A DNA stretch of 64,000 nt from Antedon mediterranea. Lineage: Eukaryota > Animalia > Echinodermata. The translations under genes and the position numbers were made by a program. The notes beneath the pieces are model-generated. The model did not search any database, was not told the origin of the DNA, and saw nothing but the letters and a program-made list of their open reading frames with translations. How positions within the stretch are numbered: position 1 is the first letter of the stretch; each line of letters begins with the position of its first letter. The DNA is taken from the NCBI RefSeq assembly GCF_964355755.1, contig NC_092671.1, positions 34,420,304 through 34,484,303 of the forward strand, read 5' to 3'. This document shows, in pieces, positions 1 through 46,522 of the stretch.

Positions 1-2523
1 AAGGCAATCGTCTCTTTTATGTGCCATCACTGCTGAAGAAGGATGAAGGTGACGAAATGGTATCACTTGATAAACTGACAAAGTCAAAGAATACTGCGGT
101 ATTTTACGTTGACTTTGATGGTTTCCTACCTGAAGGACTGTACTATCGACTCGTAGTGAGAATCGTGCATTGGTCACAACAGAGGTCACATGATGAGAGA
201 TATGATCCTAGACTCTTTTACCAGCAGGTGAAGGTATACATTGATCTAAATCATGATGCAATCATCAGGATCCTACCTGAAAGAAGATCTTGTATTCAGG
301 TAGGCTAGGAGTGTTTGCAGCCAGTGTATTACAAGTATGCCCTTAAAATCCTAAAGGTCAAATTTTCCATACTTAGTCCAAGAATTATCTTTCCATAATC
401 ATGACATTTGTTTGATAAAACAACTTTCATTCTGAGGCACAAGTTCTCATATAAGTTAAAGTGTTAAACATGAAAAAAGAAAATTAATAAAACAGACTTT
501 AAATACCTCTTGTTTTAATCAAGTTAATCACTTTCATAGAAATTAAAAAACACCAGAAAATTAATGTTTCAGTTATAAAAAGATACATTAAACGGTTAAA
601 TCAAACCAAAAACCCACTGTCTGGCAGCCAATTTGACTATTTGTTGTTTTAAACTACAGTTAAAATAATTTGTTTTAGGGCCAATTTTTTGACAAAATGA
701 AAAAATATTACATGTCATTAAAATGGCTTATTCAACAACAAAAATTAAACACAATTTTCAGGGAACAATTTTTTATTATTATTATTATTTATTTATTTTT
801 AATTTAAATTGTTAAACAAATCCTGAATATAAAATTGTTATTACAATCAAGTAAATTTGTTTTTATTCTATTACACTGTAGGTGGTTATTTACAGACTTA
901 AAGTTGATGATGATAAAGAGCTTGAACCATCACCGCGTGTATGCAAAGAGGTGAGTGATGAATGTTGTATTCCAACTTCTTCAATATGGTGAGAGAGTAT
1001 CTATATATAAATTATGGTTAATTCTGACATTGGCGAGCACAGTGGAAAAGCTTCGGGACAAATCTCCGCCTTGGTCCTTGGATACCCACCTTATCTATCT
1101 CAGATGTACCGCAAAACGTAGATTTGATAACATTAGTTTTCACTAATACGATATTGTCCATTTCTATCTTAGGAAGATATTATAAAGAGTTTTATAACAA
1201 ACTTTATTATTTCATCGGTAGATTTTTAACTTTACGCGCGGTAGAAGTCATTTCCTGGTTTACGGTAAGGTGTAAACCTCGGTTTAATACCTTTAGTAGA
1301 GCCTCTTTATTTGATTTAGGTATCATTAACACATGGAACTCATTACCCTTTCACATTGTTTCAAGCCCAACACTTAACACTTTCAAGCAAAAATATGACA
1401 CACACATAAACAGTAGGAGAGGAGGCAGCCTCTACGAGTAAATACAGTTTGACATTATCCCGAAAGAAACTTTCCAGATTAAACGCATATTGGTCTTGTG
1501 ACGCATTATTGATAAATTAAATGTATCCTGATGTTATGGCTAGGTTATACAAAAAAATGCATGCTGTAACAGGCACAGCAGATCTCAAGCCATGTTTAAG
1601 TACATAACTAGAATTGAGTAAAATGAATTAAGTAGTGACCAAAAATGTGCTTCTGATTATAGATGATACAGCTCCTCAAGAAAAACTTAAAGGACATCTG
1701 CCAAAAATGGATGAAACATGTTGCTTTTAACTTATGTGTTCTATCCACCGATCGTTTGGAGAAGGTCCTCTTGCACAAACTTGATGACTGCCTAAAGTCA
1801 ACTGGATGTCGACATCATGATCGAATGGATAATTCCAAAATTAGGCGTTTGTTTGGAGAGGAAATTTCAGGTACTGCTTAAAATCACTCTTAAAACAAAA
1901 ATATTTTAAATACCTGTAGGGCAAAACGCCATCCGGAAAATATCCATGACTTTCTATTACATGTCGAGGCTAAATACAGAATTAAACGTCCAAGTTAAAG
2001 TATAGTATCTTTTTTTCAAAACGTTTGAGCAGCAATCTTTTAAACTTGTCACCGTTAAACAATTATCATGGGGCTGCAGTTATACATTATGTCAAGGGTT
2101 AAAACAATCTAATCAAATAGAATAAAAAGCTTGGTTTTATAACAGCAACAATTTCTTTTAGTCTGCCAAGTCACTGATGCTCAAGGAACCTCAAATGTTC
2201 CAGGATTTCTGCGAAATCTCATTGGTGTCTATAAAGATATCTTTTCACCTATCCTGCCATTTGAAATCATGACAGAGGTTTGTGTTCTCCTTGATCCTCC
2301 ACAACCACGTGCTAATGACTGGCGTAGTGTAGCATGTAAGGTTGGCTATGATCATTATATCAACTACTTGATGGTCATGATGAAAAGTCCGACTATGGCT
2401 GTAATGCATGGATGTTATGAGAAAGGTTGGTCATTGGAAGACTTCGAAAAGTGTATGATTGACATACAACGTCATGATGTTGCAAGTTTGATCAATAAAT
2501 ATCTTTCTACTAAAGAGGAATGA
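1..2523 (+). CDS. ROCO protein paralog A, 3' part only (end of COR region plus C-terminal death domain)
   Basis: Exons <1-299, 882-950, 1663-1870, 2162-2523(TGA) join in frame at GT-AG sites. Each exon aligns to a paralog B exon (FYVDFDGFLPEGLYYRLVVR; LLDPPQPRANDWRSVACKVG...RHDVASLI, a death-domain pattern like DAPK1 LLDPPDP..DW). Confidence 0.9.
1270..1440 (+). mobile_element. CR1-type LINE 3' fragment in an intron
   Basis: Translates to IINTWNSLPFHIVSSPTLNTFKQKYD, matching the CR1/L2 ORF2 C-terminal motif (WNxLP...S.N.FK..LD). Confidence 0.65.
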
Positions 2524-4830: not shown

Positions 4831-5829
4831 TCCACACCTCTTTGAATTAAATCCGCCCTGATAGGCTCTTATGTACAGGATTTCAAAGCAATAATCACAC
4901 TTATATTTTTCAAACAGTATAATCTATTATATTGAATAAAAATATCTATTATAAACAATTTGCCGTTCGTATGCCATGTCGTTATTTAGATGAGAAAAAC
5001 AGGTCAAAGGTTAAAATTACAGAAAAATAGGTGTTTCAGTCACTTTTTGAAAACAATGTTGCATTATGGCAAGTATAAACATATATATTGTGAACAATTT
5101 GACACCAAAATTGGCTCCTTACGACAAATATTTATTAATTTATGTTTTTATAACCTTATTCAATTATGTCAAAGGTTAATAACCACACTTCCGGTCATTT
5201 TCAAGCAATATCATCTGTTACACTGAATATAAATGTATATCTTGGGAACAATTTGCTCCTATTTTTAATTCTCTCCGACCTGCCGTTACTTAGATACAGC
5301 AAAAAGAGGTCAAAGGTCAAAATTGCTAACAATGGGGTTTCCGGTCAATTTTACAAAGAAAGTTCTGTTAGAGCTAATATAAACATATACATTGTGAACA
5401 ATTTGACACCAAAATTATCTCACTACGTCTAGAATTTCCAGAGATATAGCATGTTTTTATATTGGTCAATTTTGAACTTTGACCCTTATATCTCGAAAAC
5501 GCTTCCTATCCTGATCGATTACCTTCCATATTCGTAATCTACAGAAAATTCTGGTCTAGAAAAGTTGGATGGCAATTTGTCCCCTTTCGGGTGGTGATAT
5601 CCCCACCTCCTGCCACTGGTATCTTCAGCTTTAGCTTGCATCATTTAATATACCATTTTTCTGTCCAAAAAAATCTTTACGTTGTGGTGCGATGTTGCGT
5701 GTGTTTTAAAGAGAATTCCCAGGCTTGATCAGTATTGTTTAGTGTACATTTGCCACCTGCGTTATATCTAAATTAAGCCTTCTTTTCTCCCTAATATACA
5801 TTATAAATAGACTGATATTACGGGAATAA

Positions 5830-5925
5830 TATATATACTTTGTATATATACTTAATAAATATATATATATAATATATATACTTAATATATATACTTTATA
5901 TATATATATATATATATATATACTT
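5830..5925. repeat. Interrupted (TA)n microsatellite
   Basis: Runs of tatata directly upstream of the putative ROCO-B promoter motif. Confidence 0.85.
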
Positions 5926-5933
5926 TATAATAT

Positions 5934-5947
5934 TTCCGGGAAGTCCC
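5934..5947. promoter_or_regulatory. Overlapping STAT GAS-like and NF-kB-like site upstream of ROCO-B
   Basis: TTCCGGGAA (5934-5942) fits TTCN3GAA. GGGAAGTCCC (5938-5947) reads GGGACTTCCC on the minus strand and fits GGGRNWYYCC. It lies ~280 bp upstream of a strong donor (ACCG|gtaagt at 6220) that probably ends a non-coding first exon. Confidence 0.5.
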
Positions 5948-6889
5948 CCACACCGTTTTCGAAACCAATAGAGTATTTCTGACTGACAATGGTCTGAATA
6001 AAATAAAGAAAGATAGTTCTGTCACCTTGCCAATACATATGAACCATGAAACCATTGATAACTATCTATATTATGGTCTGTGGGCTCATAAAATGCTGCT
6101 GCTATTCATTGGTTTTGCTCATTGCACGTTATTCATCTAGCTTAGAAAGATATATATATACAAATTGCTTGATTTCAGTATAAATATCTTATGGCGTTTT
6201 CCTTATAAATAAAATAACCGGTAAGTAGATTTGAAATTTTAATATTTACATTTTTGATTATGATCATCATTGTTTAGAACGTCTCTAAAGACGATTATTT
6301 TGCTTCAATGTACTTCAAATTGTAGACAAAAATTGATTGTTAGACATACAATACTCTACATACATGATTACAGTTGACTTTATATTTTTATTTATATACT
6401 CATGATATAACAAGTCTATTGCAAAATAATTATTTGGTAAAACTTACTTCATCGAGATAACCATTAGGAGACTACATTGAAATAATTAATTTATAATTTT
6501 TTTTTTTTAATTTTAAACGACTCTGTGTTATACATGCATCTTTTGACTTCATAAATCCCGCATTTCTTTTGTTTTTATTGATATTTTTTTAGTTTTCATA
6601 TGTATATTTTTCAATATTGATGTTTTTTATACTATGTTCATGTTGAGATGCCAAATAAAATGAAATGAAAAAAAAACCAAGACACATGGTGGTATCATAA
6701 TTATTTCTAAAAAATGCTTTCTCTCTAACTATAATGTTACACATATAGGCTAGTTTGTCTGCCTACAAGTTTCTAATTCAGAAACAACATTTTAAATTTT
6801 AAAGGTTGAACATTTTAAAAGAAGATAGATGTACCAACAAATATATTTTCAATTAATTAGGCATATTAAATTGAAGTACTGTACTTGTA

Positions 6890-9800
6890 ATGGCATTTAA
6901 TTTTGAAACCGAGGCAGAAGGCAGCAGGAAGAAAGAAAAGAAGAAAAAACGGTAATTATGTGTTAATTATGTATGCCTCGCTATAAAAATAGTAGTAGGC
7001 CTAAATAGAAAGTATGAACAATTAAATGATAAATATTGTGGTCTAGATGTCAATATTATTAGTAAGACAATTAAATAATTGATGCTGTTTTGTAAAGTAT
7101 CATTATACAAATAATTAATTAATACTGTATTAACATGTATTAATCATTGTATATACTAAAAATATTTTAAACAATTCAATATTGGTCAATTAATGGAAAT
7201 TTGAATTCTTTTGGCAATATATATGTATACACATTAACATTAACCTACTTAACGATCCATCATTGCAGTCACGAGTGTTGAGTTATTGTTACTAAACTAG
7301 AATCGGGTAAAAACTGATTTCGGTATAAAAGATAGTGAAAGTACATTTACCCTGCTAACACCTTAACAAATATAATTGTATTGATCATATGTACGGTATG
7401 CTATCTTTAATACGCTTGGCCACTTTTTACAACCAGTTCGAATTTCCCTTTTTTCATTTTGATCCATTACCATAACAACATAATAAGCCTATATAAAAAA
7501 AATAGTACGGTGAATTATCTATTACCATAGTTTCTACATTGTATTTAAAAACAAGTGCCCCAATACTAGGCTACAGTGAGCATCGAATTCCATTTCCTTG
7601 CTTATATATTGTAGTCTGTGAAAATTTTACAGCCATACCTGCTCAAAACTTAGTAATAATTGTACGACAATGTATTCGTCGGGATATTTAGAAAACAACA
7701 CATTCAGTCAGCATAATGTTCCTTCTCTCTGATATAACCTAAAGTAGTTCAATACTTTATTTTTACAGAGTTTCTACCTCAATCCCAGAATTGGAGTAAG
7801 TATGCTGTAACTATACTTAATGCCTTTAATATTAAAGTAAAACTTATGCTAATACCATGTAGAATCATGATGATTATTTTGTTGGTAATTTCAAACTGAA
7901 TGGTTCTTTGATAGAAATAAACTGATAAGCAGTTAATTTTATCACATTTATTTTCACTCCAGTAATGGTTATTACTTTAAAAAATACTAAATGCAAGCAT
8001 TTCATTGTTTTGACATTGTTAAATTTTTAGTATAATATAAGAAACGTTTCTATCATTATTACAAGGTACGAAATACAATAATAAAAAATACATAGAACAA
8101 ATTGTATAGAATACAAGAAAAAATAAAGTAATAATAGGATGAGTAAAAATGATTGTCAATATATAATGGATTGTAAACAATTCAGAATTATTTATACATT
8201 ATATCTATGTAAACATTACTGATGAAAGTTAAATCTTTTTTACAGAGAATGGAGAAGCCAAGAACTAGAGTAAATATCAACTTAGAATATTTTAATACTT
8301 TACTTTCAAAGTGTGAAATTTACTCATTATATGTCAGTACAAAAATCATATTCTAATCTAGATTGCTATGAAACTATTAGCATAACAACGTCAAATGGCA
8401 TTCACGAACTTTCTACACTATTTAGTGCTTAGGCAAATTTAAACATTATTGTCTAAAAGAAGAAATGTTGTTTGCCAAATTATAACATGTTGACGACTTT
8501 TAAATCGCGAACAAAGTTTCAAATCGAACAAAAATCAGTTTAAATAAAAATAATAAGCTACTGTACTAAACAATATAGGATGAAAAATAACAAAATACTG
8601 TATTTTATAGTCCAATTGTATCTAAATAATAGAATATCAGACATTAATTATGTACACATACTAATGAACCATTTAAATTATCTTTACAGAAAAGAGGGAA
8701 AATTTAAAAAGTAAGTATATTTTTTACTGTTTACAATAATTAGTGTGAAATTTAAAAGTACCTTCAAAGGTGGCTTACTGTAAATCGTATAAAAATATAT
8801 AATGGAAATGCCTTTTATATGCACTGCATTAAAATATTCCTAAACTTCCTAATGCATAAGAATATTTTTTTTTAATTAAAAAGCTGCTACAGCTGTGTAA
8901 ATAATAAAAACACCTTATAATATAACTTACGACAGTCAAACAATACAGAACTAATTATTAGACATTAATTACTAACCTACTAATAATGAAACTTCATTTT
9001 TATAGACTACAAAGAAAAATCTCTGAGACGTAAGTAACACTTAAACTATCTGTTTAACTTAAACTATGTCACTCTAAAGTAGCACTGTAGTATAATGAAA
9101 TATAACTTCATGAATAAACGTGCATAATGACAAACTCAACAAAATAAAATTGCATATAAATACTATCTAAATCTTGGGAATTGGTATTGAATGTATGTCC
9201 CACAAGGCGAAACGCAAGCGTGTTAACCAATAAAAAGCGTCAGTTTGATTAGTCAATCGCTCGTAAATGGTCAAATTACTTACGTTGCACTTACGTCCTT
9301 GTATTGCTCCGTAGTGTTATTGTGTAATTACACATACTAATAGATCATAATAATTTGTTTCAGGGAACAGAGAAGAGGGTAAGTAATACACTAATTATCT
9401 AATAATATTAGTTTAAAATATTATTTAAAACATGTGAAATTTAATGTTAAACAGTTTTAGTACAGTAGTATAATAGTGAATTATACTTTATGGTTGAACT
9501 TGTATATAAAAAACATAACAAAATAATCATTAAATTTAAACTGTTTTCTATGAGCAGGGATGAGTTTTGGTCGGTGATTGATAAAATTTCAAGTGAAATT
9601 GCAGTTTATGATCTACAGATGCTGAAGGTCGCCCTCTATGACATAATAAAAAACAAAAATGAATTAGATGCAGCATCAGCTAATACTTTGTTCAGACTAT
9701 TACATTCAGAAGGTTACATTGAAATTGGTCATGTTGTTAACTGTGATCTATTATTTGAAGTATTTGATGTAACAGGACTTCAAATACTACTTAAAATGCT

Positions 9801-12800
9801 CTCCAAGAAATATCACAGACGGAATCAGGCAAACAAAATCACAGGCTACAGACGGATGCTAGTTAAACTCGGCAGATCATTGAATAGTCAACAGGTGGAC
9901 ATTCTTGCAAAACTCTTCAATATTGAAAGAAATCCGAAAAATGCTTGGGATTTAATTAAGAGATTGACTCAAGAAAAGATTGAAAACACTATAGCATCAT
10001 TGAAGAATGTTGAAGCACTTGTGAAGGGCAAACAAGAATTGAGTCATGTACTTACCATTGTAAGATCATTTGGTATGTAGGCCTATTGCTTCTTTTTTTT
10101 CTACCAGGACTGTGGTGGTTGATATAACAAATAACTTTACATTTCATTTTTGATTTTTAAAAAATAGCTCTGAAATCTATAGCAATATTGTTATTGTTTA
10201 CTTTTTTTCAGTGCAACTGAAGAAACTGAATGACGGTAAATATAACAGTTTAAGAAAATGATGATATAACTTGAACAAAAAAGTGTTTTTTATTTCTCCA
10301 AAATCCCTGTTTCAAAATTAGTTTTTCATTGACTCCTTTAATATAGTTTCTGATAAATATAATTCTTAATTCTGTGTATTTGCATTATTTTTTATCAAAA
10401 TATTAGTTCCCCTTGAGGTTTTGGCAAGAGGTAAAGAGGCTAATGATGCATTTCTTAATGCCATACAAGAAGGCAGCAAACCTATATACCAAACACGTCT
10501 AATGCTTGTAGGACAAGAACGTGTTGGGAAAACGAGTCTAACTAAAGCACTCACTGATCAACCGTAAGTACTGTATTTAGGTCTACATTTTTGTTTTATG
10601 TTGTGTTTTGCGCAGTTCAAAAACAGAGGTTGATAATAACTATCAATACATAAATGAAACAATTAAACCCTTTCCATAAATATACTACCCAGCCCTTTGA
10701 GTAAACAGTACTGCTATTACGGTTTGTCATAGTGTTACTAAATTCGTTATCTGAAAAACAGGCTTCTTGTTCTATTGTTTTAGTGGCACACTACATTGCT
10801 ATAAACGTTTTTGTTCAATAAGTGTAAGTTTTAAAGGCTTTTTTATGTTATGCATAATATAATTCTTTAAATATTATTTAGGTTTAATGCTACTGAGAAA
10901 GTAACTAATGGAATTGAAGCATCATTGTCTTGTACAATTAGTGTTAAACATACTAATAACTGGAAACCAAATGAAAATAAAGGTAGTCTTATAATTAACA
11001 TCCAAATTCTTAAAAATAAATTCCATGATCAAATAATTATTACATCTAAAAGACCCATTAACTCTAAATACAGAAAGATAATACATTTAAAAAAAAATCT
11101 ATAACGTAAATTGCTTACCATTCAACAATTTAAAGGTCAATATTGCATACTTTTTTTTTAATTTATAGCAACGGGTGAGGCAAGAAAGGAATATATAAGA
11201 ACTCTTGCAGAAAGGATGGCACACGACATCTGGAGGAAACAACATGAGGTTAGAAAAATGCCTAGTTTCCCAAATTTCCTATATAAATATATGAAAGAAA
11301 TATTATTTCAATACAAGTGTTTGCAATACATGTTTTGTGACGATGGAAAGAAGAAACAGTATGAAAATCACAAATTTAAACTTTTAATACCTACCATCTT
11401 TATGCTAAATTTTTACAATATACAGAAATTAAAGGAAGATGGACAAGAAAATAAAGAAGTTGGCAGTGTTGCTAGGCCAGAGGAAGAAAATTTATTACCT
11501 TATACAAATGAAGGTGAAATATTTGCGTACGGTATTGTAAGACAAGCATTTCTTCAGGAAACATAGTAAATAATGTTATTCTATTTCCTTCCAACGATGG
11601 AGTAATAAGGTAGCATGTTTCAAAACAATAACAACATATACAATTGTTTGGGTACAGAGAATTAAATAATATAAGGCCCACGACACAAATGGAACGCATT
11701 GGAATAAAGTTTTTTGCAGCTACACAACACCCTAGAAAGCAAATTGTATCATACATTATTACTTTAATTACTAGGACAAGAAAAGATTAGGTTTTAAAAA
11801 AAAGACGCCTGGGTGGCGAAATTAGATTGGTGTTTCAATCATATGTACTGCTTTTCTTTTGATAGGGAATGAAGGTAGAGAATTGAACGAAAGACCTGAT
11901 GTGGAAAATGTGCCAATAAAGGTAAAAAATAAAGACAAACTTCGGGTTTGAAGACAATTGTAATAAAGATGTTGGAAAACATTAATTATTATTGTTGTTA
12001 ATGTTTTTGTTGTTAATAATAATGTTATTTTTATGGTTGAATATGATGTTGATGATGTGGATGTTGTTTTCCCTCTTCCTTTATTGATCCCACAGAATGA
12101 AACTATATAACAAGTAATAATTATACTGTATCATACTGTATCATACTGTTTCATACTGTATTTGATAGATTAATCTACTGTAGTTTTATATAATTTGTTC
12201 TATTTTGCTGTTTGCAAACTGTACTTTGATTTAAATAATTATAGAGATTTGGAAGGAAGAAACGGGAATATGAAGAGAAATTTGGTAAGAAAATTCTATT
12301 TGAAGGGACAGCAGAAATTCAACCAAAAGCATGTTTGTTCTTCCTTGTTCTTCCTATCTAGTCAGTGTATTTGACACCGCTTTTGTGAACACAATGATGT
12401 AAAACATTATTTTAAAGATTCGTTTCAGATTGTTTTAAATTTTTTTAAACAATGAATTCGAAACGCTGAAAAAATTCTAAAAATTGTAATATAAAATATC
12501 CTTAGTAAAACAAAATATTTTTGTAATGAATTTAAAAAGCCTAAACATCTACTAATTGTACATTTCACAATTCACTAATGAATGAAAGATAAATTAAAAA
12601 GACGCTCAAAGTAAACAAGTAATACGACTGAAAATGATGTATTTATGAATTTTCAAATTATTCCTTTCTTTTACTTTATTTAGCCTCATTTACACAATTA
12701 CGTTACATTACTAAAAATGCAATCCACTCAAAAGGAAGAATTCAGCAATACATTAATTCAAATGGATAATTTCGTACCTTTATGTGGTAAAATCTTTCGT

Positions 12801-15800
12801 AATAAGACACTGTAAGCAAACAATTCACTTACGGGAACAGTAGGCCTACCAGTAATAAAATATTTGTGATAATAATATAAGCTATGTTTATTGGGCATTA
12901 TCATAGGCCTAACATCGGATATTCAAGAAGAAGTATTTGAACTTGTTGAACACATTCTCGGAGAAAAGAAAAAAGACGGAGAGACGGATGTGTTGATAGA
13001 GAGTAAAGAGTTACAAGAGGCAATTGATGATCTGACTCTCAGCATTTGGGATTTTGCTGGACAAGATCTGTATTACATTACACATCAGGTAGAATATAGA
13101 TATTATTATAAGGTCACAACCCACAAAAAAATTCTTTAAATTTACCGCTTAAATGGGTCACACAATATCATCAACTTGAAGATCTAACATCTAGGAGTAG
13201 TTACATTTTGAAGGGGAAGGATAAGGCCAAGGTTACAATCCACAAAACTCAAATTATTTAAAAGAAACACTTCCCTCTGCAACATTGAACCTGTTTCCAC
13301 TCATGAAATGGACTAGACTCATTAAACCAAACTTATCATCGAGTTTTCACTATCTTCAATATTAAATAGTCACTCTCAGTTTTTGAAGACATCATTTATT
13401 TATTTCTTTGGTTTGTCGACAGATGTTTCTGGTATCTCGTGCTATTTACATCATCTGTTTCAATCTCTGCCATGACCTCAATGCACCATCAAGAGTAAAG
13501 TTTTTTCATAGAGATTATGGAAAGGTAACCAACAGATATTTAAAATTATGGTTTGATATGTATTCACATGCACTAATAAGGAAGGATTAGTATTATCCGA
13601 AAGCTTTTATGTTATTTTATTTGTATCTCTATTGAGATCCAGTTATTGATAACCACAACATTGTAATTTTTTTTAAATAAAAAAGTTAAAAATCAAACAG
13701 TAAAAACACATTTTTTCGTATTTATTTTTGGATTGGCCTAAACCAATACACTTTCAATATTGTTCTCTGTTAAATAACGTATGTTTGGTATGATTATCTT
13801 GGTAATTGTTTAAATTCTAACTTGTACAGATTTCAGACACTGACCACTACATGACCAACTTGGATCGTGTGGTTTTCTGGGCACAATCAATTTACTCACA
13901 TACGAGTACGACTAAAAATTCAACCCTGAAGCAGTATTCACCACCAATATTTATCGTTGGCACTCACAGAGAAATCCTTCCAGGCAATGACGAAAAGAAA
14001 GAAGCTCTTGTAAGATTTCCCGCTGCCAGTTAAGACTATGTTTTAATTATGCATATTAAATACAATTTAACTTTTAAACATATTATTTTTATTTTTCATA
14101 CACTTCCAACAGCGAGTAAGCCCGCCAATTACAGGATGGATAAACAACTTTTTGAATAATTTATCGTGTTTATAAGCCAAGGCCCGTTTGAAGCTTAGGG
14201 AGTTGAAAGAGTTGTGAGTTACAATCCTGGCACTAGGTCAGGATTAAACCCGGACCTTAGGATTGGAAGGCAAGCACGTTAACCACCAAGCTACAGCTCC
14301 ACTACAAATTATTAAAATAATGTTATTTGGTTTTCAGACTGAAGAGAAGTTTTCACTGATAAGAGAAGCATTTAAGGGTAAACCATACGAACACCATATT
14401 GTGTGTAAGTATTATGCCCTTGACAACAGCGTCCTATCAGAATTTGATATTTTATCAATTTTTAAGCTTAGACGTCATATCACAGAGGTAGCTAAGAACG
14501 AACCATATATGGGAGAGAGGATGCCCATAAGTTGGTTGAATTTTATGGGTGAAATTGAGCAATTACGTGACCAGCATAAGCACTCAATTAACTTCAAACA
14601 GGCAAGTAATTATGGTCATGTAGACTAGACTAGAACTACCTAGTCCAAGAGCATTAAATCAAAATAAGCCCTAAACCTGGACATTTCTGGTAGCAAACTG
14701 ATTTTTATCTTAAGGTGTGTTACATGAATACGTCTGATTAACGTACTAAAGGTCCTCGTTGATACAAAATTATAATTAAATGCTCTTGGCTTAACCCCTG
14801 TGTCTCACTAAAACAAAAGTAGGCCTACAGCACATGTCAAACAAGCAAACATTGTTTCTTGAATCCCATACAATACGAAAACAAACTAGATATTAATCGG
14901 TTCTCTACTATCATTTAAGATTATTTCAAATCTCAGGAATAAATGAATTGACCGAGCATTGGATTGTATAGTTATTTATTATCATCTCATTCTAATCTGA
15001 AATTAATATTCATGATCTGAGTTATATGACTAATGACAAATATAGGTATTTAGTTTATTAATATTTTTAATTTCAGGTAACTAAACTAGCTTTCAAGTGT
15101 CATATTGACAAAGATGATCAATTGTTTGTTATGTTACATTTTTACCACGACCTTGGTAATATTGTTTACTACGGAGAACGGGACACACCAAATAGCCCCC
15201 TGAATGACATCATCATTCTTATACCACAATGGCTGATTTACATTTTCAAGCTAGTTATCACAGTTAAAGATCCTTCGGAACAAGTATGAGGTTTTTTTTT
15301 ATGTTTGAGTTTACCATTAACGATTTAAAATGTTTTCATAGTAGAATGTTATGATCATGGTGCGAATTTTATAGTTACACATCTTGGCCTACCGAGTAAT
15401 AGTATTTTTATGGTAGGCCTAGAGTACATTGTAAGAGGAGGGTAGAACACATTCTGGAATTCAATCACGACTGCAATGATGCGATTTAATTTCTAGCCGG
15501 GAAAAAATCTAATAGTGAACAAAGACCATGTTTCCGCAGCCAAAACAAAAATTATTGGTTTAATGTTTTAACCAATCAGGTAATTACTTAAGAGATAATG
15601 TGCGCATGATCAATCATTACCAAACAACCGATAATTATCCGATTTGAATTATCGGTTAATTTTTCTCGAGTAGAATCGGTTAAATCCCTTTCCACCGGCA
15701 GTTCGGTCACACGGCCTAAATAGTTGGTGGCACCTTTACTGTTATTGTTTTGTTTGTTTTTTGTAGTATGCAGAGTTTAGAAGCTCTTGGAAAAAGCTTG

Positions 15801-18325
15801 ATGAAGAGGGTCTCCTAGAGGAGAGACTACTTAGACGTATGTGGCATGACTGTTTAAAGCAATTTGAAGCATTAATACAGCTGATGCAGAAATTTGACTT
15901 GCTATGTGTCAAGACTCAATCTTCTCAGGTACAACTTAATTGCAGTTATTGGTTTTATTTAATTAATTTTGTTTGATTATTTGTCTTTGCAGTTCATTAT
16001 TATTAGTACTATATTGCAGAAATATAAACACACAATCTGAATGTTCATATGTTTGGATTATGAAACCCTTTGCATTTTAGTAAAACCATTTATTATAGCC
16101 TTTTACCAGCAATTAATTTCAATCTTTAAACTTTTCAAAAGACAAAATGTACAAAAGTTGATCGTCTCTTCTATGTGCCATCATTGCTGAAGAAGAACCA
16201 AGGTGATGAAATGGCGTCACTTGACAAACTGACAAAGTCAAAGACTGCTTCAGTTCTGTACGTTGACTTTAATGGTTTTCTACCTGAAGGACTGTACTAT
16301 CGGCTGGTAGTAAGAATCGTACATTGGTCACAACAGAGGTCACTTAATAAAGGATATAATCCTAGGCTCTTTTACCAGCAGGTGAAAGTATACATTGATC
16401 AGAATCATGATGCAATCATCCGGATTCTACCTGAAAGAAGATCTTGTATCCAGGTAGGCTATCAGTGTATTCGTGTCCTTAAAACAAGTTTATTTGTTTG
16501 TTTGTCATCATCGCCCGAATTTCTATTTTTGTCCTTTAATTAGCTTTAAGTTAATTAGAATAAATTTAGACTCAGACAAATAATGAGGTTACTAAAATAT
16601 AAGCAAATATAAATTATTTGAATTTCAAAATATGTATTAGGCCTACAAAAACGTGAGACCAAGGCAATCTAACAACAGGATGCTGACTCCGTTAGATCAA
16701 AGGTTTTATCTGTGGTTGCGACATGATCAGTTCCACGCAACTAAAGAGAAACTGGAGAATAATGTACTTGGTAGTGTAACCGCAACTAGTATAAATTTTG
16801 CCGCAGCCAATCATAAGATCAAAGGACTGTTATAAGTTCCTACCTTGACAAGACAAACTCGGCTTCATGTTGTTAGATTGCCTTGACAAACAACCACACG
16901 AAATGTATTAGTTAATTTTGATTGAGAATTGTATTGTTCAAGTTTCAATCATATTTTTATTATCTGCTGTAGGTGATTATTTACAGGCTTAAAGTTGATG
17001 AAGATGAAGAACCATCACCAAGTGTCTGCAAAGACGTAAGTGCTGAATTATAATAAGTAGGTTTATGCGTTGACACAACTGCAAACATTTATTTTTTAGA
17101 TCGTCAAACTGCACAAAATTCCAAATATAAATATTTCTAGATTATTATTATATATAAGATATAGACTTGCCCCAAGTATGTAGTTATTGTCTTTTATTAT
17201 GCTAGATCACAAGTCGGCGTTTCGATTTTTGTCTGAAAATGTGAGCTTTTACCATTTTAACTCCATTTTATGTGTATTGCTTGTTATCTTTTCTTGTTGT
17301 CTTGTAAACATATTGTTGACAATTATTAGTTTGACCAAATAAAATGAATGAATTGATTGTACATGTTAATATATTTCTGATTTACAGATACTAAAACTCA
17401 TTGAGGAAAATCTACTGGACATTAATCACAAGTGGTCGAAACGTGTTGTTTTTAACTTCTGTGTCCTGTGCAGCGTCTGTCCTATGAAGAACATCCACTT
17501 GCACAAACTTAACGATTGCCTAGAGTCAACGCCTCGATGTGGGACGGCTGCTGGAATGAATACTTCCAAAATTAGACGTTTATTTGGAAAAGTTGAAGCA
17601 AATCCAGGTACGATAGGAATTAAAGCACTCCCAGTGACATTTAGATAGGGATGAAAGGAGGGAGAGATCGGAGAGTTGTTAATTAATGCCATCTTGCCAC
17701 TTGCATTTTTTTAGCATTACATATCATTTCTCCTTTCTGAACATAATAAGTAAATTGGCTATAATAAAATGGGTCTCAAAGAAAAAAACACTGGTTCCTT
17801 CATTAATAGTCATAATCATCTAACCGGAAAGATTTTAAATTATTAAAGATGAGGATCTGAGAGTTCCATTTTGATTGAACCCTATATTTTTTCTTATGAA
17901 CAGACAAAAGGATGGAAAGCACAACATAATTAGCAACCATTTGTATTATTACAGGCTGTCCAGTCACTGCTACTCAAGTAATCCCCAAGGTTCCAGGGTT
18001 TTTGAGATTTCTCATTGGCGTATATAAAGACATACCGTCACCTATCCTTCCATTTGAAGTCATGACAGAGGTTTGCGTTCTTCTGGACCCTCCACACCCA
18101 CGTGCTAATGACTGGCGTAGAGTAGCATGTAAGATTGGCTATGATCGTTATATCAACTACTTGATGGACATGATGAGAAGTCCTACTATGTGTGTAATGC
18201 AAGGATGGTCTGAGCAAGGTTTGTCGTTGGATGATTTTAAAACGGGTATGATTGAAATTAATCGCCATGATGTTGTATCTTTGATTGAGGAACATCTTAC
18301 AAAAACAAAGAATTATCCAGTGTAA
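6890..18325 (+). CDS. ROCO protein paralog B: basic N-terminus, tandem DED, Roc GTPase, COR, death domain (~1098 aa)
   Basis: 24 in-frame exons: 6890-6951, 7769-7795, 8246-8269, 8690-8710, 9006-9029, 9364-9378, 9558-10072, 10212-10235, 10407-10563, 10882-10982, 11169-11248, 11426-11513, 11866-11921, 12245-12284, 12907-13088, 13423-13524, 13830-14009, 14338-14601, 15077-15283, 15767-15928, 16142-16453, 16973-17035, 17388-17607, 17955-18325 (3297 nt). Motifs: P-loop LMLVGQERVGKTSL, switch I TNGI, G3 IWDFAGQ, G4 IVGTHRE, COR LHFYHDLG...IILIPQWL, death domain LLDPPHPRANDWRRVA. Confidence 0.88.
14095..14300 (-). mobile_element. tRNA-derived SINE
   Basis: The minus strand starts GGAGCTGTAGCTTGGTGGTTAACGTGCTTGCCTTCCAATCCTAAGGTCCGGGTTTAATCC, a tRNA-like head with an A box and a degenerate B box, followed by a non-tRNA body. 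Confidence 0.65.
16660..16885. mobile_element. MITE with CAAGGCAATCTAACAACA terminal inverted repeats
   Basis: Perfect 18-bp TIRs. A second, inverted copy lies at 38510-38708. Confidence 0.8.
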
Positions 18326-21690: not shown

Positions 21691-22744
21691 GCCCTAAAAT
21701 GCTGACCAATAAATAATCATGGAGTTCGAAACATAGTCAAGAAATAAAATTCCTTTAAAAAACCTGTCTCATGGTTTACTTTGTGTGATGTTATTAAATG
21801 TAGCCTATATATTGCAATTATTAGTTGCAAAGAACGGATTCGACGACCAACTATAAGAGATAACTTAGTAACTTTTATTCATAATGCATTCTGGAAACTA
21901 AGAACCATGATGCCACACAAACAACATTGTCAAAACAATCCTTCTTCTATGGTAAAGGAAAGGTCGTGTATATAGATGAAGAATTGTTTGATTAATGAGT
22001 ACACGTGTCGGCGGCTTGGGTGTGTGGGTCACTACGGCCTTATGGAGTACGCCTCTACCCCGGAATACGTACAGACAGTAGGTACAGTTTAGGACTTTTA
22101 CGGTAGGACGTTCATTTCAGACTATAGACAAAATATTTACTACTGATTGTTCAACAAAATTAATTGATAATAAATCATTATTTCTTATATTAAATAGAAT
22201 ATCAATTTTGAAAATGCATAATTAAATGAATGAATGAAGAAAGAAACAATAATTAAAACTGTTACGTCAAAAAGTCGAGCGGCATTTGTGAAATATTTCT
22301 TCAACAATAACTTACTATTCGTACTAATATTATTCTGTGATACTAAAACCACGCCCTCAACATTAACAATATTATTCCACCAAAAAAGGACCAGGTATAG
22401 CTTGGCGGTTGCAGCACACAGGTGAGTGTTTTTTAAGTCTTAAATCTCGGACATGATATAATAATTATAAAATACAATACTAACTTCTAAAAATAATACG
22501 ATTATAAAGATAACTTGAATGAGTTTGGTTCAGTTAAGAATAAGACGTATAGTAGGTCATGTAGCTTTCTACCTAGGCATGTTGCAGGCCAGGGCATATG
22601 GGCATGATACGGATATGATACAGGATGGATTGCTGATCGGGAACTTACGGGTACCGTACGTACTTAAATCAAATCCTATTGCGCAGTTGGGCCTTTTTAG
22701 TACTTGGAATCAATTCGAATCAAACTTGATATATTATAGATGCA

Positions 22745-25700
22745 ATGTCAAAGCTACACACAAGAATATACACTTGGCAGGAGGTTAATTGTAAAGATGG
22801 TAAATTGAACCCCGAAAAGTGGATTGTTATTGATAATGAGGTATACGATGTGACCAACTGGGGAAGAAAACACCCAGGCGGTAGTAGAGTTATGACACAT
22901 TATGCTGGACAAGATGCGTCTGTAAGTAGTAACATTATGCATGGAAAAGTAGGCCTAGAGGCCTATTACCTGTATGCGAAATTAGGTGTGGTAATGGGAA
23001 TTAATGTGCAATCTTGGTACATGTCAATCAAACTGTGTTCAATCGTATGATCTCTGGCTTGTATGATTCTAATTAGCATAGAGATAAAGAAAGTCCAAAG
23101 TTTGAGTTTGATTCTGGCGCTAAAATGCAATGCTATTATTAATCTCAAAAGTCCATCTATTGATAATATTGATATACTTTACATTGATAATTTATATTGC
23201 CCTAGTTTCTATGAACTCTAAAACATATTTTTCCAACTTCTATTGCAACAGATTTTTTTAATGAAATTATGTATATTTTAAATTTGTTATCGTGTTTGTA
23301 GTTATATAATTTGGCAGGGAAAAAAAATAAATTTTGTATGAAAAAAAATCAATGTTTTTTGTTACTTTTTCAGGAAGCATTTACTGCTTTCCATAAGAAC
23401 CAAAAATATGCTAGAAAATTTATGAAAGCCCTGCACATTGGTCGTGTAGAATCAACAGTAACCAATAGAAACCAAAGTGTTATTAAAGATGTACTTAATC
23501 TTCGACAGACAGCTGAAAAAATGGTTTGTTTAATTTTGGATGTTTCATTTTTCAATAATCTTCATTAACTCCTACACCATCTTTATAATTGACTTTGATA
23601 ACTCCAGAGGGCACAATATTTCAAAGGTCAATCGGGGGCGGGGGAAAATGTCCATATGGAACTTTTTGTCCTGATTGCCCTTTGAGGTATGGCGCCCTCT
23701 AGAGTTATCGAAGTCGCTTACTGTAATTGTACAACTGGATTGCCCTTATGCTTTACTGGAAAATAAGGAAACTTAATGCAGTTTAATTAGAATTAAGATT
23801 ATGCCCTCTACAGACCAGCCAACATGAATACAGAGAACCTAACATGCACACTGTGTAAGATGCTCGCTCCTCTGTTCTGTTAAGCTCTGTCGACACTATC
23901 AAACTTTATGTGAGAAAAAAATGTGATGTGCCCATATATGGACACAATGACATCATATCACTACCAGTACCATATTTGGTACTGTAGACAGAGCTTTAAA
24001 TAGTATATACCAAGTTCTTTAGTGTAAACTGTATGTACACGGAACCAAGAGTTTTACATCCCATCTGAAGGCCGAGGCAAACAAGGCTTTGAGTCAATAT
24101 GGCACAGATAGGCTTGAACTTTATATAACTGATCTAAAGAAAACCAGTGTTTCAACATGATACAGCCATATATGCCAACTCTCATATGCCTGTTTCTCAT
24201 ATATTCATACCATTGTGGTTGCTTATTCTTCACCATGAAATGATTTATTGTTTTAAATTTGTTTTTATTTGTTTGTTTCAGGGTTTATTCACAGCTAGCA
24301 AACTATTCTATGTAGTCCATGCTTTGCAGATCATCCTTCTAATTGTTTCAGGTTACTTCCTAATGTATTATTTTGGAGTAACCATGGCTACGTATACCTT
24401 GGCAATATTTATTTTAGGCACAGCGCAGGTAATTATTGTTTCATGTTTTGTATATGTTTTATTGTGAGTGGCCGAGCGGTTAAGACAGTGGAAGACCCAC
24501 GTCTCGCTCCATGGTTCTGGTGGTAGAACATGTCTTCTCAAATAAGAACTATAAACCGTAGGTCCAGTGTACACACATTGCTTGTGTGCACTTTAAAGAC
24601 CCTAGTACATCTTTCAAGGGTCAAGTTACCCCAGTGTACTAGTTCACACACCGCCACTGTGTTGTGGACAGAAGGGGGAGCACTAGAATTAGCAGCACTG
24701 ACATGACATGAGCCTTAGGGGAGAAGCATGTAGTTGAAAAGTGTAACATCTGAGTCCACAGCACCATGACCAATGACCCATTCATTGGAATCATTTTTCC
24801 TTTTTCATTTTTGTTAAATTTTTTAAGGACTCTAACCCACATTTTTCCTGCTTGGCATTCATTTAATTTTAGTTGATTCTAAGTAGTTGATAATAGTAAC
24901 ATATTTTCTCATTGCAGGCTCAGGCAGCTTGGTTACAACATGACTTCGGACACAACTCCGTATTTAAAAACAATAAATGGAACCGACTAGTACATTTCCT
25001 AATTATGGGTACTCTTAAGGTAAATCATGTTGTGATCCCATGCTCGTCTTAAACACCTTATCTTATAATAATCTCATGTTTGTATCGCAGTCTCATTATT
25101 TTAACTTGATCAGCTTGTGATCCTATCATTATATCATGATCGTATCATTATATTATGATAGTATAATCATGATCATATCATGATCAGCAAAATTTCGGAC
25201 CTGCTTAAAATATTGAAAATTCATTTTTTCACAATCTCTGTTGGATACCATGGATGTTCCTTTATTCTCAAGGGAGACACACCTTCCAATGATTTTTTTT
25301 TTTTTTTTTGGTATATAACTGTTAAATTTTATTTGAGCCTTGATCATATAAATATATCTGTTTCATAATCTAATGATCGGCTTTTTATAGGGTGCATCAA
25401 GTAAATGGTGGACCCATATGCACAACCAACACCATTCAAAACCCAACGTGGTAAGAGACAAATCAAAATGAATATAAATCGTTTAATTTAATTGTAATAC
25501 TAGTATAGAGCAAGTTTTGCGGTACACCACAAGGATCTGAATCACTAGGTGTACCACAAATAAAACTTTACTAATACAAATTTTCTTATCTGATTTGATT
25601 TGATTTTATTCAGGTTTCGACATAAAATTACAAGACAAAAATTAAAAATACAAATTGAAACATGCAATATAGAATATACCTTATCTACTGATTCTTCTTT

Positions 25701-42166: not shown

Positions 42167-43014
42167 CCGTAAAACCTTGAAAAACAGCCCATGGGCTTCT
42201 TCTTCTTTTAGTGCTCTTGGGTGGGCTTCTTTTCGAGAGTACTTTTGCAAGCTGTAGCGGGGGGCTTCTTTTCGAAATGAATGCTGTAAATTTTTTGAAT
42301 TTCTACTACAATAATATCACTTTTCATCTAGAATTAAAGGACACCATGTTTTTCAGTACAATTACGAAATAAACGAAGAAATGATATTTAAATTGGAACC
42401 CGAAAAACATGAAAATTCTAGCCAGAAATGCAATCAATGTATGTTCGTTGAATGGTGTAGATGTTGGACATGTTCCTGAATGTTTGGCTCAGATAATAGC
42501 TCCGCTGATGAAAGATAGGACACTAGTGCAGCTTAAAGCCAAGATAACTGGAATGGAACAAACGGCCCCAGAAGGAAAATGGGTACTTGGTGGTGGAGGT
42601 GTGGAAATTCCCTGCCGATTTTACATATTTGCCAACAAAGCAGACAAGAAAAAGATACAAGATGCGATCAAAGCACCATTTGGATGACAATAATAAACAC
42701 AATCATACATATTAATTATTATCATTAGTCTGCATCACAAGTATCTGGCATTAAATTATTATTATTAAGTAACTCTTAAGTAATCACGTGTTTGTATTGT
42801 TTATTTCTGTTCATTTGATGATCAGTTAATAAACCTACATTCTTAACATTATATAGTCTATATCGAAAAGAAGCCCATACTATCTTGAAAAGCATTTCGA
42901 GATGGGCTTCTTTTCGAGAGTGCGGTACTTTTGCAAACTGTAGAGGGGGCTTCTTTTCGAGATGGGCTTCTTTTCGAGGTTTAAGCCCATGGGCTTCTTT
43001 TCAAGGTTTTACTG
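42167..43014 (+). mobile_element. TA-flanked TIR element (Tc1/mariner-pogo type ends) carrying a HIRAN-like pseudo-ORF
   Basis: TIR C(C/A)GTAAAACCTTGAAAA..AGCCCATGGGCTT, TA duplication, and subterminal GGGCTTCTTTTCGA repeats. An extra solo right end lies at ~43478-43517. Confidence 0.8.
42321..42687 (+). pseudogene. HIRAN-like domain ORF, frameshifted
   Basis: SRIKGHHVF...FKLEPE in one frame continues after a frameshift as RNAINV...VGHVP...LAQIIAPLM...KITG...GGGVEIPC, the pattern of HIRAN domains (N..D.NA(I/V).V...(I/V)G(H/Y)(V/I)P). Confidence 0.6.
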
Positions 43015-45339: not shown

Positions 45340-46522
45340 AGTGTAGGTACCATGAATGGTTTAGATACCATGAATGGTTTAGATACCATGCATGGTGTAG
45401 ATACCATGCATGGTGTATATGTACCATGAATGGTGTGTGTACCATGAATGGTGTATGTACCATGCATGGTTTAGATACCATGCATGGTGTATGTACCATG
45501 AATGGTGTGTTTACCATGAATGGTGTGTGTACCATGCATGGTGTATGTATCATGAATGGTTTAGATACCATGAATGGTTTAGATACCATGCATGGTGTAT
45601 GTACCATGAATGGTGTATATGTACCATGAATGGTGTGTGTACCATGAATGGTGTATATGTACCATGCATGGTTTAGATACCATGCATGGTTTAGATACCA
45701 TGCATGGTGTATGTACCATGAATGGTGTGTGCACCATGCATGGTGTATGTATCATGAATGGTGTAGGTACCATGAATGGTGTAGATACCATGCATGGTGT
45801 ATGTACCATGAATAGTGTAGATACCATGCATGGTGTATGTACCATGAATGGTGTGTGTACCATTAATGGTGTATGTAACATGAATGGTGTATGTATCATG
45901 GATGGTGTAGGTACCCTAAATGGTGTAGATATCATGAATGGTGTGTGTACCAAGAATGGTGTATGTACCATGAATGGTGTAGGTATCATGAATGGTGTAG
46001 ATACCATGCATGGTGTATGTACCATGAATGGTGTATATATCATGAATGGTGTAGGTACCATGAATGGTGTAGGTATCATGAATGGTGTAGATACCATGCA
46101 TGGTGTATGTACCATGAATGGTGTATATATCATGAATGGTGTGTGTACCAAGAATGGTGTATGTAACATGAATGGTGTATGTATCATGAATGTTGTATGT
46201 ACCATGAATGGTGTAGGTACCATGAATGGTGTAGATACCATGCATGGTGTATGTACCATGAATGGTGTATATATCATGAATGGTGTGTGTACCAAGAATG
46301 GTGTATGTAACATGAATGGTGTATGTATCATGAATGGTGTAGGTACCATGAATGGTGTAGGTACCATGCATGGTGTAGGTACCATGCATGGTGTAGGTAC
46401 CATGAATGGTGTATGTACTATGAATGGTGTAGGTACCATGCATGGTGTAGGTACCATGAATGGTGTATGTACAATGAATGGTGTAGGTACCATTAATGGT
46501 GTAGGTACCATGAATGGTGTAT
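45340..46522. repeat. 18-bp minisatellite (~65 units)
   Basis: Unit GTACCATG(A/C)ATGGTGTA(T/G) with a palindromic core ACCATGCATGGT. Confidence 0.95.

What the first reader, a model, noticed from the sequence alone, without database searches (positions are those of the whole stretch)
6890..18325. ROCO GTPase with death-fold domains at both ends (DED-DED-Roc-COR-DD): candidate innate-immune or cell-death switch
Seen: one in-frame 24-exon model joins a ~170-aa two-repeat helical exon (9558-10072; FWSVIDKISSEI..DLQMLK..L and ITGYRRMLVKLGRSL, resembling the caspase-8/cFLIP tandem DED) to a Roc GTPase, COR and a DAPK1-like death domain. It has no kinase, LRR or ankyrin domain. Established: vertebrate ROCOs are LRRK1/2, MFHAS1 and DAPK1 (kinase-ANK-Roc-COR-DD); DED and DD are the FADD/caspase-8 interaction modules; Roc-COR undergoes nucleotide-dependent dimerisation. 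Inference: this resembles a FADD-like adaptor with a built-in GTPase switch that could nucleate caspase-8 filaments, analogous to STAND/NLR proteins.
Basis: partly seen in the sequence, partly recalled or inferred. Interest (0 to 1): 0.85.

Follow-up and report, generated by a model that had tools for sequence, protein, structure and literature searches.

The report
Feather-star GTP switch between death domains
A feather-star gene, one of several near copies, joins a predicted caspase-8-like pair of death-effector domains, an LRRK2-type GTP switch and a death domain in one protein that likely serves as a switchable scaffold in immune or cell-death signalling, but it lacks the surface residues that human caspase-8 needs for filaments, so it probably does not act as a FADD mimic.

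Summary
The gene is real. Twenty-four exons (6890-18325) splice into 1,098 open codons. NCBI's Antedon mediterranea model XP_071941112.1 makes the same 10072-10212-10407 joins. One contig from a paralog skips the intron after the DED exon; no spliced contig of this copy was seen, and exons 1-4 are unsupported. Exon 7 is predicted to fold as a tandem DED (pLDDT 94; Z 17.0 to caspase-8). Roc, COR and the death domain are confirmed. The protein belongs to an echinoderm branch of kinase-less Roc-COR-DD proteins whose N-terminus is swapped (tandem DED, Macro, DD, TAZ). The caspase-8-nucleator reading is weakened: the Y8 pocket position is Asp and the F122 position is Lys in 5 of 5 paralogs, and a crinoid caspase's second DED pair matches four other crinoid proteins (two NACHT) at 70-76% but this gene at 27%. 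Best reading: a GTP-timed scaffold with DED input and death-domain output. Death folds on both sides of Roc-COR are already listed for a sponge and a coral, and this scan noted other DED-bearing ROCO genes elsewhere in this genome. New variant of a known kind.

The parts
6890..6951 (+). Exon 1, predicted start; basic N-terminal tract (unsupported by NCBI model or RNA)
   Evidence: one of two ATG-donor candidates in 5000-7700
7769..7795 (+). Exon 2, 27-nt phase-2 micro-exon (predicted)
8246..8269 (+). Exon 3, 24-nt micro-exon (predicted)
8690..8710 (+). Exon 4, 21-nt micro-exon (predicted; missed by the strict scan)
9006..9029 (+). Exon 5, 24-nt micro-exon; NCBI model starts upstream in the intron at 8986
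9364..9378 (+). Exon 6, 15-nt micro-exon
9558..10072 (+). Exon 7, tandem death effector domains (DED1 and DED2), 171 aa
   Evidence: Pfam DED 8.6e-5; profile hits to caspase-8 2-155, cFLIP, FADD; model pLDDT 94.3, Z 17.0 to 4zbw
9580..9582 (+). Asp (D28 of P0001) at the position of the caspase-8 Y8 pocket residue
   Evidence: profile alignments; 5 of 5 paralogs, 0 of 44 other crinoid units
9910..9915 (+). Lys-Leu (K138-L139 of P0001) at the position of the caspase-8 F122-L123 motif
10212..10235 (+). Exon 8, 24-nt linker
   Evidence: the intron before it is skipped in one paralog-level contig
10407..10563 (+). Exon 9, Roc alpha-0 helix and P-loop (G1, K241 of P0001)
10882..10982 (+). Exon 10, switch I (G2, T260 of P0001)
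11169..11248 (+). Exon 11, charged insert inside Roc
11426..11513 (+). Exon 12, charged insert inside Roc
11866..11921 (+). Exon 13, charged insert inside Roc
12245..12284 (+). Exon 14, insert; NCBI model uses a donor 48 nt further on
   Evidence: paralog isoforms P0005/P0094 differ at this join
12907..13088 (+). Exon 15, Roc switch II (G3 WDFAGQ)
13423..13524 (+). Exon 16, Roc
13830..14009 (+). Exon 17, Roc G4 (THRE, no Asp in the fourth place)
14338..14601 (+). Exon 18, end of Roc and start of COR-A; GC donor
15077..15283 (+). Exon 19, COR-A
   Evidence: Pfam 8.3e-8
15767..15928 (+). Exon 20, COR-A
   Evidence: Pfam 0.0026
16142..16453 (+). Exon 21, COR-B
   Evidence: Pfam weak
16973..17035 (+). 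Exon 22, end of COR-B
17388..17607 (+). Exon 23, Cys/His motif between COR and DD (possible zinc site, inferred)
   Evidence: pattern recurs across the family alignment
17955..18325 (+). Exon 24, death domain and stop
   Evidence: Pfam Death 8.9e-9; best solved match UNC5B
3..2523 (+). Last four exons (3-299, 882-950, 1663-1870, 2162-2523) of the tandem upstream paralog (gene of P0002): COR-B, eroded Cys motif, death domain; open frame

Best explanation
The gene encodes a kinase-less ROCO protein (predicted tandem DED, Roc, COR, death domain) that likely works as a GTP-timed scaffold in crinoid immune or cell-death signalling, with the DED pair predicted to be the swappable input and the death domain the output. 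Shown: the open reading frame, the domains, the paralog cluster and the residue changes. Predicted: the DED fold. Inferred step 1: the DED pair docks on kin DEDs (its own paralogs or the DED-only protein P0006) rather than on caspase-8-type surfaces. Inferred step 2: docking clusters the protein and drives the Roc-COR monomer-dimer cycle known from other ROCO proteins (PMC6337361, passages). Inferred step 3: the repositioned death domains recruit death-domain partners that signal downstream. No partner, ligand or output has been tested.
For: The core is a conserved Roc-COR-DD unit: 44 of 63 hits carry a precomputed Death domain. In front of Roc, relatives instead carry Macro, DED+Macro, DD+Macro, DD, TAZ or NHR, so the DED pair sits in the slot that is swapped. 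In the Roc-COR tree of 45 of those 63 proteins, the four Antedon tDED proteins form one clade (SH-aLRT 100) beside the Macro-bearing crinoid proteins, within an echinoderm-only branch (99) that radiated separately in each class. The same DED-pair family is fused to NACHT-LRR, a caspase, NHL repeats, DDs and other ROCOs; all 17 of 21 hits looked up are crinoid. Against P0001 the DED pair of three paralogs is 63-69% identical, Roc 79-87%, COR 75-82% and DD 72-84% (two paralogs). G1, G2 and G3 are intact. The nearest DED pair is the Antedon DED-only P0006 (38%; SH-aLRT 90). Several copies lie on one 40.9-Mb contig, two in tandem in this window, and paralog transcripts appear spliced.
Against: The direction of signal rests on architecture alone; DEDs often diverge fast without being sensors (own knowledge). 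G4 reads THRE and has Asp in only 7 of 45 family members, so GTP specificity is not assured, although G4-G5 variation is known in Roc domains (PMC6337361, passage). The C-terminus is not constant: 19 of 63 hits lack a precomputed Death domain. No immune-challenge expression data were found. Splicing of this copy and its first four exons are unconfirmed. Both trees are quick searches rooted at the midpoint, and warns of long branches meeting.
Confidence: 0.45

Rival explanations
1. FADD-like nucleator: the death domain docks on a receptor and the GTP cycle exposes the DED pair, which seeds a caspase-8 filament.
For: The fold matches caspase-8 tDED best (Z 17.0, rmsd 2.6 over 160 residues). A crinoid caspase carries the same DED-pair family (P0015). 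That caspase also lacks the FL motif, so crinoids may use other surfaces and human rules may not transfer.
Against: Asp at Y8 and Lys at F122 in 5 of 5 paralogs; Y8D and F122G/L123G cripple recruitment and chains in human caspase-8 (PMC4819448, PMC3477315, PMC7864959, passages). The caspase's second DED pair is 70-76% identical to four other crinoid proteins (two NACHT, one LRR, one unannotated) and its first pair 45-55% to NACHT proteins and kin, but both are 26-27% to this gene. No Antedon caspase with this DED family appeared among the 12 hits or the 17 of 21 hits that were looked up; those searches were limited.
Confidence: 0.2
2. Brake: like cFLIP-S or viral MC159, the altered DED pair would cap DED chains made by crinoid NLRs and caspases, and the GTPase would time its release.
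For: Both canonical chain-forming surfaces are changed. MC159, cFLIP and vFLIP are the next-best fold matches (Z 12-14). The closest kin is a DED-only protein of cFLIP-S-like layout.
Against: A cap still needs one surface that binds the chain, and both appear altered. Loss of the FL Phe is family-wide (F in 1 of 44 other units), so it does not mark inhibitors.
Confidence: 0.15
3. A by-product of birth-and-death duplication and exon shuffling, or a non-immune signalling protein: the fusion would be young and tolerated, with no dedicated death-signalling role.
For: The copies are young and include a truncated model (P0003) and an upstream copy with an eroded Cys motif. NCBI's start for this copy reads in from an intron. 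In the other crinoid a different DED subclade was fused to the same Roc branch (P0013). The DD's best solved match is the netrin receptor UNC5B.
Against: The frame stays open over 24 exons with G1-G3 intact. Repeated, independent joining of death folds to this core in crinoids and an urchin, and likely in sea stars, suggests selection. Paralog transcripts appear spliced.
Confidence: 0.2

Closest known systems
Sponge and coral ROCO (AP-GTPase+COR) proteins with death folds on both sides, in Kaur et al. 2021 (PMC8195603; main-text passages; rows of supplementary file 4): Amphimedon XP_019861208.1 DED+TRADD-N+Ankyrin+APGTPase+COR+Death; Acropora XP_015757179.1 TRADD-N+Death+APGTPase+COR+Death+Death
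   Same: N-terminal death fold, Roc-COR core, C-terminal death domain, no kinase; read there as lineage-specific immunity or apoptosis modules
   Different: Here a tandem DED abuts Roc directly, with no TRADD-N and no repeat sensor; homology of those cores to this branch was not tested
Invertebrate NHR-Roc-COR-DD-TIR proteins ('neuralized PATS1', Saccoglossus P0033; Antedon's own P0038; compare the Aplysia MyD88-like ROCO in PMC9334734, passages)
   Same: Nearest conserved relatives of the Roc-COR-Cys-DD core, 29-35% identity over the region; same G1, G3 and TH[RK]x G4
   Different: They have NHR in front and TIR behind and form a separate clade; this gene has neither
Trichoplax ROCO repertoire (Civiero et al. 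2014, PMC4104024; section 5 part 1 and passages read, figure not seen)
   Same: Expanded kinase-less Roc-COR genes flanked by CARD and death domains
   Different: The word DED does not occur in the main text; no tandem DED described
Caspase-8 / cFLIP / MC159 tandem DED
   Same: Same predicted two-DED fold, TM 0.75, Z 17.0
   Different: 19% identity; no FL motif, Asp at the Y8 pocket, no RxDL; fused to a GTPase, not a protease
FADD
   Same: DED and DD in one chain
   Different: FADD has one DED with an exposed FL motif next to its DD; here two DEDs and the DD are about 800 residues apart, with Roc-COR between
DAPK1
   Same: Roc-COR followed by a C-terminal DD; a DAPK1 cluster ranks 8th by features at 0.90
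   Different: No kinase or ankyrin repeats; DAPK1 was not in the tree

Membership tests
ROCO proteins | Roc G-domain followed by COR | tested here: met
   Pfam Roc 1.2e-15, COR-A 5.7e-16, COR-B 2.8e-4; best solved match a prokaryotic Roc-COR, 4wnr, E 1.2e-13
ROCO proteins | G1 P-loop, G2 Thr and G3 DxxG intact | tested here: met
   GQERVGKT, T260 and WDFAGQ
ROCO proteins | G4 guanine-specificity motif with Asp in the fourth place | tested here: inconclusive
   THRE here; fourth place is N in 16, E in 14, D in 7 of 45; G4-G5 are known to vary in Roc (PMC6337361, passage)
ROCO proteins | GTP binding, hydrolysis and COR-dependent monomer-dimer cycle | not testable with these tools
   needs purified protein
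Tandem-DED proteins (caspase-8/cFLIP type) | Two packed DED folds | tested here: met
   model pLDDT 94.3, pTM 0.88 from a 16-sequence alignment; Z 17.0, rmsd 2.6, 160 of 171 residues to 4zbw; a profile without any caspase hits caspase-8 over both DEDs, E 4.8e-6
Tandem-DED proteins (caspase-8/cFLIP type) | Pfam DED above the curated cut-off | tested here: not met
   23.1 bits against 35.9; 12 of 19 scanned relatives do pass
Tandem-DED proteins (caspase-8/cFLIP type) | DED2 FL motif (F122/L123) and DED1 Y8 pocket for type I chains | tested here: not met
   K138-L139 and D28 by profile alignment; register not checked on coordinates
Tandem-DED proteins (caspase-8/cFLIP type) | RxDL motif (feature recalled, from no call) | tested here: not met
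   absent here; present anywhere in 2 of 56 crinoid units
FADD-like adaptor | Single DED with exposed FL motif joined to a DD | tested here: not met
   two DEDs, no FL motif, Roc-COR in between
FADD-like adaptor | Binds and nucleates caspase-8 | not testable with these tools
   needs co-precipitation and filament assays with the Antedon caspase
DAPK1 | N-terminal CaM-regulated kinase and ankyrin repeats | tested here: not met
   no kinase or ankyrin match at E<=0.1
NHR-Roc-COR-DD-TIR orthologues | NHR and TIR domains; place in the conserved clade | tested here: not met
   neither domain; separate clade, and Antedon has its own member P0038
NLR / STAND receptors | NACHT or NB-ARC ATPase with repeat sensor | tested here: not met
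   none in Pfam; analogy only
Echinoderm kinase-less Roc-COR-DD branch (defined here) | Core groups with echinoderm-only paralogs apart from the NHR-TIR clade | tested here: met
   SH-aLRT 99 for the branch, 100 for the crinoid clade; quick tree, midpoint root, 45 of 63 hits

The most novel reading that the evidence does not exclude
The Asp at the Y8 pocket and the Lys at F122 are the two halves of the same head-to-tail DED contact, recoded from hydrophobic to a salt bridge. These ROCO proteins (with the DED-only P0006, which has Arg at F122) would then form a private, GTP-gated DED polymer insulated from the caspase-8 channel, converting a DED signal into a death-domain signal, the reverse of FADD. 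It would be a natural orthogonal DED code and a GTPase-controlled death-fold signalosome.
Probability: 0.15. Interest if true: 0.75.

Novelty: new variant of a known kind. Interest (0 to 1): 0.42.

Why it matters
It is a minimal animal ROCO with no kinase and no repeat sensor, so the Roc-COR cycle can be studied with only interaction domains as input and output. That bears on the open question of what the switch in LRRK2 and DAPK1 actually moves. It also shows crinoids reusing one DED pair across NLRs, a caspase and GTPases, with paired surface changes that offer a direct test of how death-fold networks keep their channels apart. The layout itself is not unprecedented, and no function is shown.

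Tried and rejected
Single-sequence fold of exon 7: pLDDT 43.5, uninformative. Single-sequence search of exon 7 against solved structures: nothing relevant. Foldseek alone gave no row at E<=0.001, although all listed rows are tandem DEDs with TM up to 0.76. Profile-profile test of DED1 against DED2 as an internal repeat: probability 6%, so the halves are not detectably repeated at sequence level. Complex prediction of the DED pair with the Anneissia caspase prodomain (residues 1-362): no answer, score 0.02, alignments not used; this says nothing for or against binding. No run is on record as RNA. X2 and X4 behave as DNA. X1 also holds intron pieces (such as 10227-10393), so its 229-letter exact match on the last exon is only a weak hint that this copy is expressed. 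Summed contig depth over the Roc exon is many times single-copy depth but is not a copy number. Alternative central exons: 12096-12113 breaks the frame, and 12684-12786 is open but not used by NCBI's model. No whole genome was held, so a genome-wide count of paralogs and a search for an Antedon caspase partner could not be done. The profile search for longer DED-pair proteins timed out. Pfam found no DED in the sea-star N-termini P0058 and P0063; Atlas structure rows point to DED but under the bar, so this is a lead only. Literature searches for this architecture listed no paper describing tandem DED-Roc-COR-DD. Passages of PMC6321704, PMC2575513, PMC12373286 and PMC11874512 hold no Roc or COR; PMC5094078 and PMC7159879 describe other ROCO fusions. 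Subscription papers are not covered. Supplementary file 4 of PMC8195603 was cut when stored, only 20 of its 923 'AP-GTPase' places were seen, file 13 was not searched, and other papers' supplements were not read. A look-up of earlier scan notes by sequence found nothing.


Full report
Observation. I rebuilt the gene from the sequence. Twenty-four exons from 6890 to 18325 give 3,297 nt and 1,098 residues with a single terminal stop. Of 23 introns 22 are GT-AG and one is GC-AG, and exons are 38% GC against 28% in introns. A search with exon 7 found NCBI protein P0001 (XP_071941112.1, Antedon mediterranea, uncharacterized, 1076 aa) at 100% identity. It agrees with my model from exon 5 to the end, including the 10072-10212-10407 joins, and differs in starting inside intron 4 and in a later exon 14 donor. 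Exons 1-4 therefore rest on splice signals alone; a strict scan recovers 3 of the 5 micro-exons 2-6, against about 0.6 expected.

RNA. No run is on record as RNA. At 80% likeness, run X1 has one contig that skips exactly the 139-nt GT-AG intron after exon 7, with 23 letters on the short side. That stretch had no X1 cover at 90%, so the contig comes from a paralog. Loose ends in X1 at 9561 and 10565 read, by eye, as the neighbouring exons of paralog P0005, whereas the DNA runs show intron sequence at the corresponding ends. The exon 8 to exon 9 join was not listed. Splicing is thus seen for the family, not for this copy.

Domains. On P0001 Pfam gives Roc, COR-A and Death above cut-off, COR-B weakly, and no kinase, LRR or ankyrin. 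Roc is split by a charged insert of about 130 residues, the least conserved part among paralogs (33-40%). G1, G2 and G3 are intact. G4 is THRE, and across 45 relatives its fourth place is N 16, E 14, D 7. A Cys/His pattern recurs between COR and DD. The DD's best solved match is UNC5B; whether it is closer to DAPK1 was not tested.

Tandem DED. Exon 7 alone scores Pfam DED below cut-off and only in its first half. Of 21 relatives among 1.8 billion representatives, 19 new ones were scanned and 18 carry a DED match, 12 above cut-off. A 16-sequence profile with no caspase in it hits human caspase-8 across both DEDs (E 4.8e-6), then FADD, cFLIP and MC159. The model from that alignment has pLDDT 94.3 and pTM 0.88 and matches caspase-8 tDED at Z 17.0, rmsd 2.6 over 160 residues, above MC159 (13.8) and well above PYD, DD and CARD folds (under 10).

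Family context. At least five Antedon proteins on one 40.9-Mb contig share this DED pair at 64-69%, and the last four exons of one lie just upstream in the window, open and with a DD. The Roc-COR-DD region finds 63 proteins; 44 carry a precomputed Death domain and 1 a DED. A quick tree of 45 of them (18 left out by my choice, mostly near-duplicates, weaker hits and a few with other architectures; no LRRK or DAPK outgroup; midpoint root; long-branch warning) separates the conserved NHR-Roc-COR-DD-TIR clade from an echinoderm-only branch with separate radiations in urchins, brittle stars, sea stars and crinoids. Within it the N-terminus varies: tandem DED, Macro, DED+Macro (P0029), DD+Macro (P0030), DD (P0077), TAZ (P0050), and a DED-like segment in sea stars that is only a lead. 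In Anneissia a different DED subclade is fused to the same Roc branch (P0013). The DED-pair family is also fused to NACHT-LRR, a caspase, NHL repeats and other ROCOs; 17 of the 21 hits were looked up and all are crinoid.

Mechanism. Caspase-8 chains form when DED2 F122/L123 enters the DED1 pocket around Y8; F122G/L123G blocks chains and Y8D blocks recruitment (PMC3477315, PMC4819448, PMC7864959; passages). By two profile alignments these positions are K138-L139 and D28 here. After dropping isoform duplicates (49 of 56 units kept), D and K are present in 5 of 5 Antedon ROCO pairs; among the 44 others D occurs in 0 (40 have a residue there) and K in 1. The five are close kin and count as one event. 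Against over-reading: F is present in only 1 of the 44 others, and the crinoid caspase lacks it too, so human surface rules may not transfer. Still, that caspase's second DED pair is 70-76% identical to those of four other crinoid proteins (two NACHT, one LRR, one unannotated) and 27% to this one, and in the DED tree its pairs sit with NACHT proteins and their kin while the ROCO pairs sit with the DED-only protein P0006 (SH-aLRT 90). I therefore read the DED pair as the swappable input, the Roc-COR cycle (PMC6337361, passages) as timer, and the DD as output (0.45). Rivals are the FADD-like nucleator (0.2), a cFLIP-like brake (0.15) and a tolerated shuffling product or non-immune protein (0.2). 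All mechanistic steps are inferred.

Known kin and novelty. ROCO proteins with CARD and death domains are described in Trichoplax (PMC4104024, section 5 part 1 and passages), with TIR and death domains in Aplysia and anemones (PMC9334734, PMC5094078, passages), and as conflict systems in bacteria (PMC8195603, PMC7159879, passages). Supplementary file 4 of PMC8195603 lists a sponge DED+TRADD-N+Ankyrin+APGTPase+COR+Death and a coral TRADD-N+Death+APGTPase+COR+Death+Death, so death folds at both ends of Roc-COR are in print. Eight literature searches listed no description of a tandem DED directly on Roc-COR-DD or of this echinoderm branch; the library is incomplete and unread supplements may bear on this. 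Earlier notes of this scan report ankyrin-cassette and CBP-bait ROCO genes with DEDs elsewhere in this genome and NHR-ROCO-TIR genes in molluscs; they are unchecked leads, not support.

Verdict. Observation confirmed; interpretation partly supported; new variant of a known kind; interest 0.42. The boldest reading not excluded is a charge-recoded, private DED interface gated by a GTPase (probability 0.15, interest 0.75 if true).

Noticed in passing
window 3-2523: The upstream tandem paralog's last four exons read open through a death domain, although the database model P0002 stops early by reading into the intron after 950; several Cys residues of the COR-DD motif are lost in this copy.
   Followed up: partly
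window 17388-17607: A Cys/His pattern between COR-B and DD recurs across echinoderm, hemichordate, amphioxus and mollusc relatives, with no Pfam match; possibly an undescribed zinc-binding module.
   Followed up: partly
window 13830-14009: G4 is TH[RKQ]x in 45 of 45 family members, with Asp in fourth place in only 7; nucleotide preference of this whole ROCO branch is open.
   Followed up: partly
window 12096-12113 and 12684-12786: Two further stretches with good splice signals in introns 13 and 14; the second could replace exon 14 in frame. Paralog isoforms P0005/P0094 differ at the exon 14-15 join.
   Followed up: partly
P0015 (Anneissia), residues 8-360: A caspase-8-like protein with four DEDs whose second pair is 70-76% identical to the DED pairs of P0088-P0091 (two NACHT, one LRR, one unannotated): candidate matched sensor-caspase pairs.
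   Followed up: partly
P0006 (Antedon), 197 aa: DED-pair-only protein, nearest kin of the ROCO DED pairs, with Arg at the F122 position; a cFLIP-S-like layout and the best candidate partner.
   Followed up: partly
P0028-P0031, P0042, P0049, P0050: Macro domains sit in front of Roc-COR in crinoids and, on a separate branch, in a brittle star; an urchin member has a TAZ finger there.
   Followed up: partly
P0058 and P0063, residues 1-110: Sea-star members have a roughly 100-residue helical N-terminus that Atlas structure rows place with DEDs (TM about 0.65, under the naming bar); Pfam finds nothing.
   Followed up: partly
window 22730-24464: Downstream gene with a cytochrome b5 domain (Pfam 6.3e-15) and a hydrophobic exon; likely a fatty-acid desaturase (label from recall).
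   Followed up: no
window 42385-42684: Open frame with a HIRAN domain match (Pfam 1.5e-5).
   Followed up: no
window 45275-46668: Minisatellite-like tract giving long repetitive open frames on both strands and a local GC-skew peak.
   Followed up: no
window 14118-14310 and 16373-17274: High-copy repeats inside introns 17, 21 and 22, seen as very high contig depth and many loose ends.
   Followed up: no
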